Shown: one piece after another, positions 35,948-42,885 of the stretch
Layout: each line of letters begins with the position of its first letter
How positions within the stretch are numbered: the first letter of the stretch is position 1
DNA from: an uncultured cyanobacterium
Lineage (GTDB): Bacteria; Cyanobacteriota; Cyanobacteriia; Cyanobacteriales; Nostocaceae
Direction: 5' to 3'
NCBI GenBank assembly: GCA_963706595.1
Contig: OY970166.1
Location: forward strand, 608,001-672,000
Length of the DNA stretch: 64,000 nucleotides
Notes under the pieces: generated by a model
Told to the model about the DNA's origin: nothing
Seen by the model: the letters and a program-made list of their open reading frames with translations, nothing else
The model's database searches: none
Program-made: the position numbers and the translations under genes

Positions 35948-36196
35948 ACAGATACTTCTGGAACTTTTAGTAATGTACCTATTGTGGTTGGTGAGAAAAA
36001 TTTAAACATTAGTAAAATTAAGGATTTTTGCTGTTAAAAAACACAGAAAATATCACAGACTTCTTTGGCAATATAACTAAAATGAAGTTACTCATATATC
36101 TTAATTAGTATAAATTCATTCGATAAAGTATTGTCTTCTTAAGACTAAGCTGATTTTGTCTAACCCTCTTTTATGACTCTGATGAAGGAAAAAAGA

Positions 36197-36298
36197 GTAG
36201 GTTGGGTTGAAGCCTTGTGAAACCCAACGAAACCAAGGATTATGGGTGTTGGTTTACGCCTTCGGCAAACTACGTTAACGTTCCTCTACCCAACCTAC
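36197..36298. repeat. REP-like palindrome GTAGGTTGGG...CCCAACCTAC
   Basis: Terminal 10-bp inverted repeat with internal hairpins. Confidence 0.7.
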
Positions 36299-36532
36299 GT
36301 CTAAATTGATCAAAGTCATAAAAAATAAGGGTTCATGATTTTTATATGACGAGAATAATAAAACAGCGCTAATGATTTTGTAACAATAGAAATTTCACTA
36401 AATAGACAATTTTTTATTTTAAAAAATACATAATAAAATTAGCCCTAATCAGGACATAGTAATATAAAAATGAAAGAGTTACTGAATGAGCAAAATTCTT
36501 ATTAGTGTACCAATTCAAAAAGTATATGGCTT

Positions 36533-37723: not shown

Positions 37724-37825
37724 AAAACTACTTTTTTGAGTTAAAAAATTCGAGTCGCCTTCAGGTAACAAAAGGAGAGAAAAAAAGAACAAGTGCAAAG
37801 TGCAAAAGAGGAAAAGTATAAAGGG

Positions 37826-40800
37826 CTACTGAAGAATCCTCCCAACAGCGCAAACAACACGAAAACCAATATAGTTGTGGTGGTTGTCGCGAGTATTGGG
37901 GCTGCGAAACGCGGAACGGCAGTAGTTAGGATAGTTGAACCAGGACCCGCCCCGCAGTATGGCTCTTACTTTTTTTTGGGAAAGATTATCATTATCATCA
38001 AACCAAGGACTGCCATCTATTGGCGCTCTCTTATAGTTATAGTGCCAGTCATCAAGACACCATTCCCATACATTTCCGTGCATATCGTATAACCCAAAAG
38101 CATTTGCTACCCCAAAACTGTTCACTTCTGTTGTTTCGCCTCGATATTCTCCTTCTATACCTGCGCCATAAGTGAGTTGAGCTAAATAGTTTGCAAGTTC
38201 TGATGTGATTGTTTCACCAAAGTGAAATGGGGTTGTAGTTCCGGCTCTACAGGCATACTCCCATTCCGCTTCACTGGGTAAACGATAGGTTTTGCCAGTA
38301 TGCTGGGATAGGCGATCGCAAAACTCCAGCGCATCGTACCAAGAGACTTTCTCTACAGGTCGATTCCCATCCTTAAACTTAGATGGGTCAGGTTCAAGTC
38401 TTCGGTTAACTTGCGGCAAAGATGCTACTGCTTGCCATTGCGCCTGTGTTATGGGGTATTTGCCCATGAAAAACGCTGGGACAGTTACTTGGTGTTGTGG
38501 ACTTTCATTACTTGAACGCTCCGGTTCCTCTTTTGGCGACCCCATGATAAAACTACCTTCAGGAATAGCAACCATTTCTAAGGTGACGTTGTTACCAAGA
38601 TTTTCTGTGTCGTATTCGGCGAATTTGGTGTCTCGCTTGATAATTTTGCCTTGACGGTTAACAGTGACAGTTTCAAACTCAAAGGACTTTAGCTCATCAC
38701 TTTCTTTTGCCAAAGATTGAACATCTTTAAATTCTTCTTTAGAATCAAAAGCAGCGATGGTATTTCTCACTAAATTTTCGCCCTCTCCATCCTGATTTCT
38801 TTGGGCTGCTTTTAAAGCTAAATCCAATCTCACCAAAGGATCTTGATTCGCTTCAATCCAACGCCAATACTGAATTAATGTAACTGTGATTCTAGCACTG
38901 CGACAGATTTGATCTGAACTCAATTCGTTGTCATAACCCCATTCAAGAAACAAAATTAAATTTGAGTTTTCTTGCAGAAGTAACTGCCGTCCCTTATTAT
39001 TATCTCCATTGCCAAAAAGCTTGAGAATTGTGTCACAGAAATTATCCTGATAAAAATCCAACACTTTAGGAGCTAGATAATCTATCCCTCTTGCTTTCTG
39101 TAATTTACTTTCTGCATAAGTACGGGCAGGTTCGGGCAAAGTTACTCTCCAATCAGATGCAGTAGAAGATTTTTCTGCCATAGAAAACTTGAGCAATTCC
39201 ATTAAAGCTTTCTGACCACTCCTACCTTCAATAGCCCTAGCCAAATCCCGACTTAAGCCACTAGGAAAGAAAGCCAACAAAGGAAATATATCTTGCCCTT
39301 CTACCGATAACATTTCAAAAGAACGCTCTAAAGTTATCTGCAAACTTCTTTCTCTTCTTTGTTCAGGAGAATAAGAACCCAGAACTTCCAGTGGTTCAAT
39401 TTCCAAGTCTTCACACAGCATCTTCAGAGTACTTTGAGTTTCTGCCATATAAGATGCTGCTAGTTTAATGGGTAAGGGATAGCCATCAAGAAACTTGACT
39501 AAAAGATTAAAATCTTCCTCCAAATCATCACTATCTCCCCATTGTGCTTGTGATGGAGCATACTTTCTAAATATTTCTCTGGTTTCTAACACTCCCATGC
39601 TGCAAACTTCTTCTTGATGACAATAAAGAATATCCCTTACTAAAGAATTACGAGAAGTTAGCAACAGTCTTAAATTAGGACACTGTTCTAAAAGCGAGTT
39701 TAAAAATTCAATTAGTTCATTATATTCTTTCTCAATCAATCTATCTAAATCATCGAAAATTAGAAATACTCGACTATTCCTTAACTCTTTCTCTAAAGCG
39801 AAACTCTTTAATTCCAGATTCTGTTGAACTTTGGTAATCAAGGTTCCTACAGAATCAGTATCACGCAAACTAATAAACCAAACTCCATCCTGATAGCGAT
39901 TGCGCTCATGTAACCACTGACCAATGGCATAAGCTAATGCAGTTTTACCTATTCCTCCCATACCATGTAGAGCAATACAACGTTTATCTGACTCTACCAG
40001 GACTTTAATTACCTGATGTATTTCTTGTCTGCGCCCGACAAAGTTAGGATTGTCACGGGTAATATTAGTATTTGACCACTGGGGATAGATAACCTGGTGA
40101 GAATTAGCTGGTTCTATAATCAGCGATTCATTATGGGAAACTTGGGGGAGTAATCGAAATTTAAAGGCTTCATCAAAATTAACCCCTGCCTCAAAAGTCT
40201 GAGAGTTAAACTGCTTTTTTAAGTTATCATCAAGTTTAACAGCTTTACGACTCGATAAAAATCCATCACCAACTGAATCTTCATTGAATAATGCTTGATA
40301 AAGTCTTCGAGAAAAACATCGGGCTGCAATATCTAAGATTGTATCTTCAGCGTTAACAGCAATTACATGAGACACTCCTACTTTGACAAAAGCTTGAGCT
40401 AATTTCTCTGAATGACAGGCATTCAATAATGCTAATTGACAAGGTGGTTGCTTCAGATTTGATAAAGCGATGGCAAGTTCTTCTTCACTAAAAGCACGAG
40501 TCATTCCTACTGAATCTTCTAGCACCAAAGCTGTGCTATCCTCATCTTTCATTCCATGACCAATAAAATGAATAATCAATGGTTTGGAACGATTGGAAAA
40601 CACATCTTGTAGCGTCTGAGAGGTGGCGACTTTCACCACTATTTCCACTGATATAGGATGAGATATATCTTCTAAAACTGAAGCGACCGCATCAATTTCT
40701 TTCTGGATTGATAAATTCTCGACTGGTAATGATTTTTCATCGAGTAGAGGTGCTGAAAATAATATCAGAATTTGATTATTGAAGGCATGATCTTTTTTAA

Positions 40801-40858
40801 TATCTTCTTCTACCCCTGGATTCAGGGGAACCCGTTGACCCACTTTTGAGACAACCAT
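37826..40858 (-). CDS. CHAT caspase-like protease - NB-ARC/STAND NTPase - FGE-sulfatase (SUMF1/CLec-fold) multidomain protein
   Basis: CHAT dyad HFIGH101G and LNAC148HS; FVGR; Walker A GMGGIGKT; Walker B FLIFDD; LLTSR; GYPLPI; C-terminal MVAIPEGSFIMGS...YRLPSEAEWEYACRAG...NAFGLYDMHGNVWEW...RGGSW...GFRVV. Confidence 0.9.
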   Translation of the reverse strand: MVVSKVGQRVPLNPGVEEDIKKDHAFNNQILILFSAPLLDEKSLPVENLSIQKEIDAVASVLEDISHPISVEIVVKVATSQTLQDVFSNRSKPLIIHFIGHGMKDEDSTALVLEDSVGMTRAFSEEELAIALSNLKQPPCQLALLNACHSEKLAQAFVKVGVSHVIAVNAEDTILDIAARCFSRRLYQALFNEDSVGDGFLSSRKAVKLDDNLKKQFNSQTFEAGVNFDEAFKFRLLPQVSHNESLIIEPANSHQVIYPQWSNTNITRDNPNFVGRRQEIHQVIKVLVESDKRCIALHGMGGIGKTALAYAIGQWLHERNRYQDGVWFISLRDTDSVGTLITKVQQNLELKSFALEKELRNSRVFLIFDDLDRLIEKEYNELIEFLNSLLEQCPNLRLLLTSRNSLVRDILYCHQEEVCSMGVLETREIFRKYAPSQAQWGDSDDLEEDFNLLVKFLDGYPLPIKLAASYMAETQSTLKMLCEDLEIEPLEVLGSYSPEQRRERSLQITLERSFEMLSVEGQDIFPLLAFFPSGLSRDLARAIEGRSGQKALMELLKFSMAEKSSTASDWRVTLPEPARTYAESKLQKARGIDYLAPKVLDFYQDNFCDTILKLFGNGDNNKGRQLLLQENSNLILFLEWGYDNELSSDQICRSARITVTLIQYWRWIEANQDPLVRLDLALKAAQRNQDGEGENLVRNTIAAFDSKEEFKDVQSLAKESDELKSFEFETVTVNRQGKIIKRDTKFAEYDTENLGNNVTLEMVAIPEGSFIMGSPKEEPERSSNESPQHQVTVPAFFMGKYPITQAQWQAVASLPQVNRRLEPDPSKFKDGNRPVEKVSWYDALEFCDRLSQHTGKTYRLPSEAEWEYACRAGTTTPFHFGETITSELANYLAQLTYGAGIEGEYRGETTEVNSFGVANAFGLYDMHGNVWEWCLDDWHYNYKRAPIDGSPWFDDNDNLSQKKVRAILRGGSWFNYPNYCRSAFRSPNTRDNHHNYIGFRVVCAVGRILQ

Positions 40859-40862
40859 TCCT

Positions 40863-41237
40863 CTATTTCCTCTTCAGTAGCTCTATTATTGAGTTCAACC
40901 ATTCCTCTAACTCCTCATCACTAGCATTATCGAGGTCTAGGGGAGGAAGTTTTGGGTGTGTTAACTTACCTTCTGGTTTTATTCCTTTTTCTCGAAGTTT
41001 TCGCCGCCAATTATTAATCGCTTTAGCGACTTTTATAGAGTACTCTATCAAATTGGCTGCTGCGGCTGCCCCTCCAATTACTGTAGCCACAAAAACTATG
41101 TCATCTGCACCAAAGACACGATTTAATGACTTCTGCACATTTATTGAACTCATCGTTAGTGATGTTTCCAATGAGTCGATTTCATCTGGTGGCAGTTGGG
41201 ATGAAATAATTATGCTACAGATAGGAATTTCGCTCAT
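40863..41237 (-). CDS. Small protein with central hydrophobic Gly/Ala segment, EACC1-like (inferred)
   Basis: 124 aa; GADDIVFVATVIGGAAAAANLIEYSIKVAKAINNWRRK; SD-like AGGGGT upstream; stop is 4 bp (AGGA) before the CHAT gene ATG. Confidence 0.7.
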   Translation of the reverse strand: MSEIPICSIIISSQLPPDEIDSLETSLTMSSINVQKSLNRVFGADDIVFVATVIGGAAAAANLIEYSIKVAKAINNWRRKLREKGIKPEGKLTHPKLPPLDLDNASDEELEEWLNSIIELLKRK

Positions 41238-41338
41238 TTGACTACACCCCTAATTTTGGTATAATTTGAAGCTACCGTAAAATAATATCATTTTTTCCTA
41301 GCTTTTAGGCAATTTTCAGTTAATTATAGGTCAAATAA

Positions 41339-42043
41339 ATGGGTTTTCAACTCGAAAGCATCATTCCTTGGGGACGTTCAATGCTGGAATATACCCAGAT
41401 GTTTGATTTAACTCCTGAAGAATTCAATTTAAATATACTCGATTGTGCTGGTGGTCCTGCTAGTTTCAATGCAGAAATGACACTTCAAGGCTACAAAGTT
41501 ATTTCTTGTGACCCAGTTTATCAATTTACAGCCGATGAAATTGCTCAACGCATTCAAGACACTTATGAAATAGTTATTCAAGGTGTGAAAGCCAATCGAG
41601 AATGCTATGTTTGGCGGAATGTTCAGTCACCAGAAATGATGGGTGAAATTAGGATGTCAGCAATGCGTCAATTTTTGGTAGATTTCCCTAACGGAATCAA
41701 TCAAGGGCGTTATCTAAAAGATGAATTACCTGTTTTACCTTTTGCAGCGAATCAATTTGATTTGGCTTTGTGTTCCCACCTATTATTTACCTATTCTGAG
41801 CAACTTTCAGCAGAGTTTCATTTAGCATCGATTATGGAAATGTGCCGAGTTGCCAAGGAAGTACGCATTTTTCCATTGTTACAATTATCTGGGGAATTAT
41901 CTCCCTGGCTGCAACCAGTGATAAATGAATTACAACAACGGGGATATGCGGTAAAAATCAAACAAGTTGCTTATGAGTTTCAGAAGAATGGGAACCAAAT
42001 GCTGTGTGTCAACTCAGATATAGGAATCCGGTTTGATTTATGA
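41339..42043 (+). CDS. SAM-dependent methyltransferase-like protein
   Basis: ILDCAGGPASFNAE, LPFAANQFDLALCSHLLFTY, RVAKEVRIFPL. Confidence 0.85.
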   Translation: MGFQLESIIPWGRSMLEYTQMFDLTPEEFNLNILDCAGGPASFNAEMTLQGYKVISCDPVYQFTADEIAQRIQDTYEIVIQGVKANRECYVWRNVQSPEMMGEIRMSAMRQFLVDFPNGINQGRYLKDELPVLPFAANQFDLALCSHLLFTYSEQLSAEFHLASIMEMCRVAKEVRIFPLLQLSGELSPWLQPVINELQQRGYAVKIKQVAYEFQKNGNQMLCVNSDIGIRFDL

Positions 42044-42495
42044 AAAAAATTAAGTATTGTAGTAGCGTGGCAAGCTTAAAGTAGTGCATTAGGAAAAAGC
42101 AGAAAACATTGATTTATCTCAATTTTCCCAAAAATCTATTGCAACATTTTAGCGTTGTCAGTCCAGTAGTGGCGTGGCAAGCTTAAAGTAGTGCATTAGG
42201 CAAAAGCAGAAAACATTGATTTATCTCAATTTTCTCAAAAATCTATTGCAACATTTTAGCCTTGCCACGCCAGTAGGGTGCGTTAGGATGAAATCCGTAA
42301 CGCACCATTCATTATTAAGGCTTTGGTGCGTTACGCTACCGCTAACACACCCTACTGGACTGACAAGCTTAAAATAGTGCATTAGGTAAAAGCAGAAAAC
42401 ATTGATTTATCTCAATTTTCTCAAAAATCTATTGCAACATTTTAGCCTTGTCCCGCCACTACTTGTTTGTTCAATAATCAAATAGTATTCCTATA
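42019..42495. mobile_element. Nested miniature elements: outer TATAGGAAT...ATTCCTATA element, central REP-like palindrome, three ~107-bp TIR-bounded copies
   Basis: Unit ...caagcttaaa.tagtgcattagg.aaaagcagaaaacattgatttatctcaattttc.caaaaatctattgcaacattttagc... at about 42060-42167, 42167-42274 and 42352-42461. Confidence 0.85.
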
Positions 42496-42885
42496 TTTGA
42501 AGCCCAGGATTTTCTACAGGCGATAATTGGGGCGTTGCTGATGTCAAAACCACTGTATTACTAGAGACGTTCAATCGAACGTCTCTACACCTAAATTTAT
42601 ACTTATACCAATTCTGTATGATAGCTTGCGTGGCGTAGCCATAGATGCGCTGAATGTAAGAGAAACGCACCGCAGAGACACAGAGGACACAGAGAGAAAA
42701 AAGGTTAAAAAATTCGGCGCAACCTCACAAAGAGATGGTATTAGTTTCAGCAACGCCGATAATTGGCTTGGCGCTAGACAAAGTTACTCAACATCAGAGT
42801 ATATTAAATTGGAAGCCCGCTCAGGCGTGGTTCGATTTCGTGTAGCCCCAGGCTTTAGCCTGCGGGAAATATATCAAATTTTCTC

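What the first reader, a model, noticed from the sequence alone, without database searches (positions are those of the whole stretch)
37735..37957. 3' end of the CHAT-STAND gene looks like a DGR variable region (remote target)
Seen: the last 43 sense codons (CTG CGG GGC GGG TCC TGG TTC AAC TAT CCT AAC TAC TGC CGT TCC GCG TTT CGC AGC CCC AAT ACT CGC GAC AAC CAC CAC AAC TAT ATT GGT TTT CGT GTT GTT TGC ... CAG) never have A in position 3. Codons just upstream are A-rich (CAA AAA AAA GTA AGA GCC ATA). Scaffold residues (RGGSW, CRSA, GFRVVC) use A-free codons, and the residues between them are NNC/NNT, as expected from mutated AAC/AAT templates. A pyrimidine-rich tail and an imperfect hairpin (gttacc-tgaa-ggcgac) follow the stop. 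Established: cyanobacterial diversity-generating retroelements mutate template adenines into the C-terminal CLec/FGE-sulfatase domain, including targets far from the RT. Inference: the sensor of this protease-NLR is hypermutated, giving an adaptable receptor. No RT or template repeat is in this window.
Basis: partly seen in the sequence, partly recalled or inferred. Interest (0 to 1): 0.85.

Follow-up and report, generated by a model that had tools for sequence, protein, structure and literature searches.

The report
Orphaned hypermutated tip of immune sensor
The end of this cyanobacterial immune-sensor gene really was rewritten by a known targeted-mutation machine, but the machine's template is missing from this genome, so the sensor looks frozen; it sits beside a small partner gene that resembles protease-activated cell-suicide proteins.

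Summary
The last 43 codons of a CHAT–NB-ARC–FGE/CLec gene (37826-40858, minus) have no third-position A. Against DGR templates of other cyanobacteria it differs mainly at adenines (12/31 A, 6/80 other), and one ortholog sits in a full cassette (22/30 A, 0/71 other). It is a genuine DGR variable region.

'Live remote target' fails here. This assembly has no matching template, its one DGR reverse transcriptase lacks about 59 C-terminal residues, and the hairpin is decayed. Orphaning is usual: of 41 ortholog loci, 1 keeps the whole cassette and 8 keep only avd stubs.

It is a distant, sub-threshold EACC1-like protein, so the likely unit is sensor → STAND → CHAT protease → pore-former. The pair is a 3.5-kb insertion not found in 10 congeners.

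DGR-diversified STAND-CLec sensors, remote or abandoned targets and EACC1-protease pairs with DGR-type fusions are all in print, and this scan noted orphaned VRs in other genomes. Verdict: a new member of a known kind, useful as a two-gene test system.

The parts
37850..37957 (-). DGR variable region proper (LRGGSW...GFRVVC, 36 codons) at the tip of the CLec/FGE domain
   Evidence: No A3; 12/31 A vs 6/80 non-A mismatches to the TR in L069; scaffold residues 0.87-1.0 identical across 30 orthologs (L968 0.8), most intervening residues 0-0.3
37826..37849 (-). End of the gene (AVGRILQ-stop), the presumed IMH-like 3' homing boundary
   Evidence: Similarity to templates falls off here; shared with cis targets of the same DGR family. 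The IMH role is inferred.
37770..37825 (-). Pyrimidine-rich tract after the stop, conserved in DGR targets of this family
37754..37769 (-). Decayed hairpin/cruciform, 4 of 6 stem pairs
   Evidence: 11 of 29 ortholog VRs have a perfect 6-bp stem at this place, in four sequence versions that keep the pairing
37743..37753 (-). Last bases similar to the target-avd intergenic region; in L132, L145, L147 and L060 avd starts about 25-30 nt further on
37826..40858 (-). CHAT protease - NB-ARC (STAND) - FGE/CLec protein, 1010 aa
   Evidence: Pfam; H101, C148 and the Walker A and B key residues invariant in 30 full-length orthologs
40283..40732 (-). CHAT domain (residues 43-192) with intact His/Cys dyad
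39386..40027 (-). NB-ARC/STAND NTPase domain (residues 278-491)
37853..38578 (-). FGE-sulfatase/CLec domain (residues 761-1002), related to the DGR variable protein TvpA (PDB 2y3c, E 1e-22)
40863..41237 (-). 124-aa EACC1-like partner gene, stop 4 nt before the CHAT gene; probable protease substrate and latent pore-former
   Evidence: At 40 of 41 ortholog loci; 24 of 100 distant homologs hit PF19953 below cut-off; AF2 model; hydrophobic stretch 46-64
37724..41240 (.). Whole two-gene module, an insertion between two conserved convergent/divergent neighbours
   Evidence: Left flank gene in 10 of 10 same-genus genomes, module in none; in G003, G004 and G009 the two flanks are about 45 bp apart

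Best explanation
The tail is a true DGR variable region that has lost its machinery. The gene once stood in a target-avd-RT-TR cassette (shown for orthologs, inferred for this copy). Adenine-directed mutagenic homing rewrote the ligand-binding tip of its CLec domain, and everything from avd onward was later lost, so the present sequence is a fixed variant. The functional unit is two genes. Inferred mechanism: the CLec tip binds a foreign ligand, most likely from a phage; the STAND domain oligomerises; the CHAT protease is switched on and cuts the 124-aa EACC1-like protein in its exposed loop 40-46 (after R40 or D45/D46); the C-terminal piece forms a membrane pore and kills the infected cell, protecting the filament. 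My odds: DGR origin of the tail 0.97; not diversifying in this strain now 0.85; small protein is the CHAT substrate and death effector 0.55-0.6; the ligand is a phage product 0.5.
For: SHOWN. (1) A3-free tail. (2) Versus the L069 template, ungapped: 12/31 A and 6/80 non-A mismatches, p=2e-4; 5 of the 6 are third positions; all 19 VR adenines sit on template adenines. The A rate exceeds the non-A rate for 39 of 39 TR-like sequences under symmetric scoring. (3) Ortholog L124 is in a complete cassette, 22/30 A vs 0/71. Ortholog L139 vs its genome's TR: 17/31 vs 3/70. Eight ortholog VRs pooled against the L071 TR: 115/248 vs 18/608. (4) No cognate TR here. The RT is 304 aa against 352-353 aa in 9 of 10 relatives, and its missing C-terminus is not found in the genome. 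(5) Of 41 ortholog loci, 9 have avd sequence and 1 has an RT. In L147 the first 33 avd codons join directly to the post-TR spacer, an internal deletion. Of 5 ortholog genomes searched, 4 have no DGR RT and 1 has a truncated one. (6) The small gene is at 40 of 41 loci. EACC1 is the only family that recurs among 100 distant homologs (24 hits, best 23.1 bits vs cut-off 23.6). Twelve weak profile hits are a second small-protein family, and 11 of the 12 have a CHAT gene just downstream. The model (pLDDT 77) has an N-terminal beta-alpha-beta part, a low-confidence loop 42-45, a long helix and a C-terminal beta hairpin. LITERATURE: EACC1 is cut at Asp49 by its caspase-like STAND partner and the C-terminal piece permeabilises liposomes (PMC12642450, passages); the stem of the hairpin is needed for homing in BPP-1 (PMC3240598 section 7).
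Against: The assembly is one contig at 94% completeness, so a plasmid-borne RT/TR could be missing. The foreign templates were fetched with a motif designed from this VR, and L069 and L071 were chosen as best matches afterwards; related genomes are not independent. The hairpin test is weak: only 5 of 17 targets in loci picked for avd+RT+TR have a perfect 6-bp stem by my test. The small protein itself matches no Pfam, NCBIfam or PADLOC family at the normal threshold. Only 1 of 32 close orthologs hits EACC1 (E 0.034), while 15 of 32 hit Phage_portal and 12 of 32 hit HTH_32 at similarly weak scores. The link to the second family is modest (hhalign 51%, E 1.5e-4). The CHAT domain scores 16 against a cut-off of 140 for caspase_w_EACC1. 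D45 is invariant in 32 close orthologs but present in only 67 of 111 wider homologs, where R40 is better kept (92 of 111). The model makes residues 47-55 a strand, not part of a membrane helix. No ligand, cleavage, toxicity or expression was tested.
Confidence: 0.7

Rival explanations
1. It is a live remote target: a cognate TR and a working RT exist in trans on DNA missing from the assembly, or the truncated RT still works.
For: Assembly 94% complete; Avd is intact at C1:4624841-4625197 (133 bits vs cut-off 80); the VR is in frame; a trans-type match exists for ortholog L139; trans activity is argued in PMC10907252 (passages).
Against: No cognate TR or post-TR spacer in 5.57 Mb: spacer hits lie only at the two non-cognate TRs and at a dispersed repeat. 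The RT lacks about 59 residues. The hairpin has two broken pairs. Two sister VRs of this family in the genome (C1:4509282, 4510423) are also without a template.
Confidence: 0.12
2. This copy was never diversified in place. It received an already mutated CLec end by recombination or gene conversion from another FGE gene.
For: Across 30 orthologs the FGE body is less conserved (0.65) than CHAT and NB-ARC (0.83), and tails belong to several DGR scaffold types. Sister orthologs L148 and L150 carry different tail types. In run X1, contigs over the FGE part are 87-89% identical, against 95-98% for the rest of the module and 99% for the left neighbour.
Against: L124 is a cis target, and 8 loci have avd stubs right behind the gene or its remnant. 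The FGE tree is poorly resolved (13 of 35 inner branches open) and does not group this copy with its in-genome paralogs. This rival can coexist with the best explanation.
Confidence: 0.15
3. The 124-aa protein is a membrane anchor, sensor or inhibitor of the protease, not a cleaved pore-former (the role first proposed for EACC1 in PMC7159879, section 33).
For: All EACC1 scores are below cut-off; no specific solved-structure match.
Against: A conserved charged loop (R40, G43, D45) lies just before the hydrophobic segment, size and layout match the tested EACC1, and the protease dyad is invariant.
Confidence: 0.3
4. The A3-free tail is chance or ordinary codon bias.
For: One unrelated gene in the genome also has a 43-codon A3-free tail.
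Against: Adenine-specific match to templates; 4 of the 5 longest tails are FGE genes; 24 of 29 ortholog VRs have at most one A3.
Confidence: 0.01

Closest known systems
Remote variable proteins and abandoned paralogs of cyanobacterial DGRs (Vallota-Eastman et al. 2020, PMC7517822; passages and supplement rows seen)
   Same: C-terminal CLec with a 3' VR, far from any RT. 'CLec & CHAT' and 'CLec & P-loop NTP hydrolase' classes are in their supplement. They suggest removal of the machinery once a variant is selected.
   Different: They called remote targets at 50% identity or more. Here the adenine test shows no cognate template in the genome. CHAT and NB-ARC are in one protein, and a conserved partner gene is present.
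STAND NTPase-FGS conflict systems (Kaur et al. 2021, PMC8195603, passages) and DGR-diversified STAND-CLec sensors of Thiohalocapsa PB-PSB1 (PMC10907252, passages)
   Same: Effector-STAND-CLec layout, caspase-type effectors listed, DGR nearby or elsewhere, proposed invader sensor.
   Different: Their NTPases are given as NACHT, MNS, nSTAND1, KAP or AP-GTPase; this one scores best as NB-ARC. PB-PSB1 targets vary in nature; this one appears frozen. The partner here is EACC1-like rather than an EAD adaptor.
EACC1-caspase two-gene system (Kaur et al. 2020, PMC7159879 section 33; Evans et al. 2025, PMC12642450, passages)
   Same: Small 5' gene with a hydrophobic stretch rich in small residues, then a gene with an N-terminal caspase-superfamily protease and a variable sensor. 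Evans et al. state that EACC1-linked proteases can be fused to DGR-type domains.
   Different: The small protein is below the PF19953 cut-off, and PF19953 found nothing in 151 cyanobacterial genomes, although it also rang in none of the controls. The protease is CHAT-type. Their Fig. 6A and supplementary PDF, which may show this very family, could not be seen.
Bordetella phage BPP-1 DGR target (PMC3240598, abstract and section 7)
   Same: VR, 3' boundary and downstream inverted repeat whose pairing, not sequence, matters.
   Different: Here the order in intact relatives is target-avd-RT-TR, a long pyrimidine tract precedes the hairpin, and the target is a cellular sensor.

Membership tests
Functional DGR target | VR at the 3' end of a CLec-fold gene, differing from a template mainly at adenines | tested here: met
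   Against templates from other genomes: 12/31 A vs 6/80; 39 of 39 templates show the bias
Functional DGR target | Cognate template repeat in the same genome | tested here: not met
   Own TRs differ at 18/71 and 22/74 non-A positions; nothing better. Assembly 94% complete.
Functional DGR target | Intact DGR reverse transcriptase in the genome | tested here: not met
   One DGR RT, 304 aa, homology ends near residue 293; 352-353 aa in 9 of 10 relatives
Functional DGR target | Avd in the genome | tested here: met
   C1:4624841-4625197, NF033474 133 bits vs cut-off 80; about 4 Mb away
Functional DGR target | Intact hairpin/cruciform after the VR | tested here: inconclusive
   4 of 6 pairs here, 6 of 6 in 11 of 29 orthologs, but only 5 of 17 cassette-linked targets pass the same test
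Functional DGR target | Ongoing variation at template-A sites in a population | tested here: inconclusive
   Only contigs of related strains were available, and the VR rows were not among the differences shown
Remote variable protein as defined in PMC7517822 | VR at 50% nucleotide identity or more to a DGR-internal target of the same genome | tested here: met
   149/228 (65%) to the target beside avd-RT, counted over VR plus flanks
STAND-FGS conflict system (PMC8195603) | N-terminal effector, central STAND NTPase, C-terminal FGS/CLec | tested here: met
   CHAT, NB-ARC, FGE-sulfatase all above Pfam cut-off
STAND-FGS conflict system (PMC8195603) | Ligand-triggered defence or cell death | not testable with these tools
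   Needs the bench; PMC10907252 says CLec-STAND proteins were not yet characterised
EACC1-caspase system | Small gene directly 5' of a gene with an N-terminal caspase-superfamily peptidase | tested here: met
   40 of 41 loci; H101/C148 invariant; 11 of 12 distant homolog loci also have a CHAT gene downstream
EACC1-caspase system | PF19953 score above the curated cut-off | tested here: not met
   None for this protein; best distant homolog 23.1 vs 23.6 bits; 24 of 100 below cut-off
EACC1-caspase system | One hydrophobic segment with a patch of small residues, flanked by alpha+beta parts | tested here: met
   Residues 46-64, mean hydropathy 1.84, with GGAAAAA; model, which draws 47-55 as a strand
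EACC1-caspase system | Protease of the NF047832 caspase_w_EACC1 type | tested here: not met
   16.4 bits vs cut-off 140
EACC1-caspase system | Site-specific cleavage releases a pore-forming C-terminal piece | not testable with these tools
   Inferred from PMC12642450

The most novel reading that the evidence does not exclude
The two-gene module is a complete NLR-to-pore death circuit whose specificity is set by hit-and-run diversification. It couples to a DGR, can swap its tail between DGR families, sheds avd-RT-TR by independent deletions, and then travels between distant cyanobacteria as a fixed allele. The roughly 30 natural tips recovered here would then be a library of selected phage-ligand specificities, read out by an unannotated cyanobacterial branch of EACC1 pore-formers.
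Probability: 0.3. Interest if true: 0.7.

Novelty: new member of a known kind. Interest (0 to 1): 0.45.

Why it matters
What DGR-diversified CLec sensors in multicellular bacteria bind, and whether binding kills the cell, is open (PMC10907252). This module is only two genes, has an intact protease and a probable built-in death readout, and comes with about 30 natural sensor tips on a body that is 69-83% identical. It could therefore be screened directly against phage genes. The ortholog census also puts numbers on how often cyanobacterial DGR targets outlive their machinery (1 full cassette in 41 loci), which means loose 'remote target' calls may overcount active targets.

Tried and rejected
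Own-genome template: blastn, an adenine-tolerant scan and searches with foreign TR plus spacer found no cognate TR; the two RT-less TR/VR pairs match only their neighbours (13/24 A vs 1/74, and 14/27 vs 3/71). The other four RVT_1 hits are not DGR RTs by similarity (24-28% or no hit). Sequencing runs: no RNA holder listed; four runs laid were contigs only, so no read-level variation; a protein search did not recover the X1 variant of the tip. PF19953 over 151 cyanobacterial genomes gave 0, but rang in no control either, so it is uninformative. First AF2 model from 32 close sequences was poor (pLDDT 58); the 111-sequence model was used. Fold searches of that model gave no specific match (Foldseek best E 0.025; VIA best Z 7.8, common alpha/beta folds). 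Complex prediction of two CHAT domains with the small protein gave no verdict. The search for related loci could not use the wide alignment. Trees of N-terminal part and FGE body were too poorly resolved to prove tail swapping, and I ran no topology test. PADLOC gave only weak STAND hits. Supplements of PMC12642450: two files searched, no 'EACC1' text; the supplementary PDF was not readable. Paper searches for the combination listed three papers with both 'diversity-generating retroelement' and 'EACC1'; in the passages seen none describes this cyanobacterial family, but figures and most subscription papers were not visible. Rows dropped: 2 of 10 VRs in the pooled test for length difference; 8 of 47 TR-search loci not counted as TR-like; of 41 ortholog loci, 32 were translated and 30 were full length, and a VR could be cut out in 29; the 1482-aa hit P0161 was left out of the 101.

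Full report
Observation. The flagged stretch is the 3' end of a 1010-aa minus-strand gene (37826-40858) with CHAT, NB-ARC and FGE-sulfatase domains. Its last 43 sense codons have no third-position A, against 33% in the rest of the gene and a next-longest run of 14. Only 5 of 2400 long ORFs in the genome have such a tail of 30 codons or more, and 4 are FGE genes.

Is it a DGR variable region? Yes. A motif scan of the genome collection returned 47 loci, most with avd and RT ahead of an adenine-rich template. The best ungapped template (L069) differs from the window at 12 of 31 adenines and 6 of 80 other bases, and all 19 adenines of the VR sit on template adenines. With symmetric scoring the adenine rate is higher for 39 of 39 TR-like sequences. 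The motif was designed from this VR and the best templates were picked afterwards, so these figures lean in favour. The independent test is ortholog L124, which stands in a complete target-avd-RT-TR cassette with 22/30 adenine and 0/71 other mismatches. Across 30 full-length orthologs the scaffold residues of the tip are mostly 0.87-1.0 identical and most residues between them 0-0.3.

Is it a live remote target? Probably not. The genome holds one DGR RT (C1:4623926-4624840) behind an intact avd and a TIR/SEFIR-like-FGE target (domain name recalled). The RT is 304 aa, loses homology near residue 293, is not followed by a template, and its missing C-terminus is not found elsewhere; 9 of 10 relatives are 352-353 aa. 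Two RT-less TR/VR pairs exist, but their templates differ from this VR at 18/71 and 22/74 non-adenine positions. An adenine-tolerant scan of both strands found nothing closer. The hairpin has 4 of 6 pairs, where 11 of 29 orthologs have perfect stems in four sequence versions; stem pairing is needed for homing in BPP-1 (PMC3240598, section 7). That last point is weak, because only 5 of 17 cassette-linked targets pass the same test. The main caveat is a 94% complete, single-contig assembly.

Orphaning is the rule in this family. Of 41 ortholog loci, 35 include the FGE domain, 9 have avd sequence and 1 has an RT. The avd stubs end at different points. In L147 the first 33 codons of avd run straight into the spacer that follows the template, so one deletion took out the rest of avd, the RT and the TR. 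In the window, similarity to the cassette stops about 10 nt after the hairpin, some 25-30 nt before avd would start. Among 15 ortholog genomes searched with a template plus spacer, only G063 held a close copy (92%); three held full-span copies at 70-76%. In G063 the ortholog differs from the template at 17/31 adenines and 3/70 others. The VR of L127 matches the template of another genus (L071) with 13/31 and 0/76, although no DGR RT was found in its own genome; 4 of 5 genomes so tested had none and the fifth a truncated one. Among 11 genomes of this genus only G010 has full-length RTs, and its template of this family is split by an insertion.

The unit is two genes, and it is an insertion. A 124-aa gene (40863-41237) ends 4 nt before the CHAT gene and is present at 40 of 41 loci. 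The pair was not found in 10 same-genus genomes, three of which show the flanks about 45 bp apart. Orthologs at 69-83% identity are scattered over named Nostoc, Calothrix, Scytonema, Microcystis and Pleurocapsa records, which fits horizontal spread (inference; no donor test was run). Tails belong to several DGR scaffold types, and sisters L148 and L150 differ in type, but the FGE tree is too weak to prove swapping. A related strain in run X1 covers the same locus with contigs 99% alike in the left neighbour, 95-98% in the module body and 87-89% over the FGE part; this is one run, contigs only.

What the small protein is. It has no Pfam, NCBIfam or PADLOC match at normal thresholds. The Atlas gave unnamed clusters first and an EACC1-bearing cluster at 0.88 as a lead. 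A profile search gave 101 relatives; of 100 scanned, 24 hit EACC1, all below the cut-off, and no other family recurs more than twice or three times. Among 32 close orthologs only 1 hits EACC1, and weak Phage_portal and HTH_32 hits are more frequent. In 301 cyanobacterial genomes the profile found 2 strong and 12 weak hits; the weak ones are a second family of about 108 aa, and 11 of 12 have a CHAT gene downstream (hhalign 51%). The model has beta-alpha-beta at the N-terminus, a low-confidence loop at 42-45, a long helix and a C-terminal beta hairpin. R40, G43, D45 and D46 are invariant in 32 close orthologs. This fits the tested EACC1, which is cut at Asp49 to free a pore-forming C-terminal piece from an N-terminal part that pairs with two C-terminal strands (PMC12642450, passages). 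A cut after D45 would give about 4.9 and 8.8 kDa. It works like EACC1 by inference; it is not a member by the Pfam test.

Mechanism. Shown: past adenine-directed rewriting of the CLec tip; loss of template and enzyme in this assembly; intact protease and NTPase motifs; tight linkage to the small gene. Inferred: ligand binding at the tip, STAND oligomerisation, CHAT activation, cleavage in loop 40-46, pore formation and death of the infected cell.

Comparison and novelty. Remote and abandoned CLec targets, with CHAT and P-loop classes, are in PMC7517822 (passages and supplement rows). Effector-STAND-FGS systems tied to DGRs are in PMC8195603 and PMC10907252 (passages). EACC1-caspase pairs are in PMC7159879 (section 33), and a DGR-type fusion is mentioned in PMC12642450, whose figure and supplementary PDF I could not see. 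Earlier notes of this scan report the truncated RT in this genome and orphaned VRs in others; none held the words EACC1, CHAT, STAND, DGR and cyanobacteria together. So this is a new member of a known kind. What it adds is an unannotated cyanobacterial EACC1-like partner, a count of how often the machinery is lost, and a compact system in which the open question of what these sensors detect can be tested.

Verdict. Observation confirmed, interpretation partly supported, interest 0.45.

Noticed in passing
L060:6950-7373 (G010, minus strand): The template repeat of an otherwise intact DGR of this family is split by an insertion of about 310 nt that looks like a non-autonomous insertion-sequence end (recalled resemblance).
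   Followed up: no
G000:C1:1870953-1871063 and C1:820206-820564: Two FGE genes are frameshifted inside their VR-like tails, as is ortholog L116.
   Followed up: partly
L010:3704-6170 (G000:C1:3651703-3654169): A 128-aa gene that resembles Pepco (recalled, not tested) precedes a caspase-like-FGE DGR target that has its own template but no RT.
   Followed up: partly
L007:3959-9564 and L009:6165-10210: Two MoxR-type ATPase gene clusters end in FGE genes with VR tails (family names recalled). The L007 pair shares the window's tail type and also has no template.
   Followed up: partly
L237-L248: A second family of 105-110-aa proteins upstream of CHAT-STAND genes in 12 of 301 cyanobacterial genomes, almost without Pfam matches; a candidate further EACC1-like branch.
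   Followed up: partly
L139:7555-8511: The ortholog in the one genome with a close template is interrupted by about 960 nt at codon 517.
   Followed up: no
G000:C1:4926342 (minus): An unrelated 362-aa gene ending in DSCLVCTVH also has a 43-codon tail without third-position A.
   Followed up: no
window 42020-42500 and 36160-36370: Dispersed repeats with many copies across the genome flank the region.
   Followed up: no
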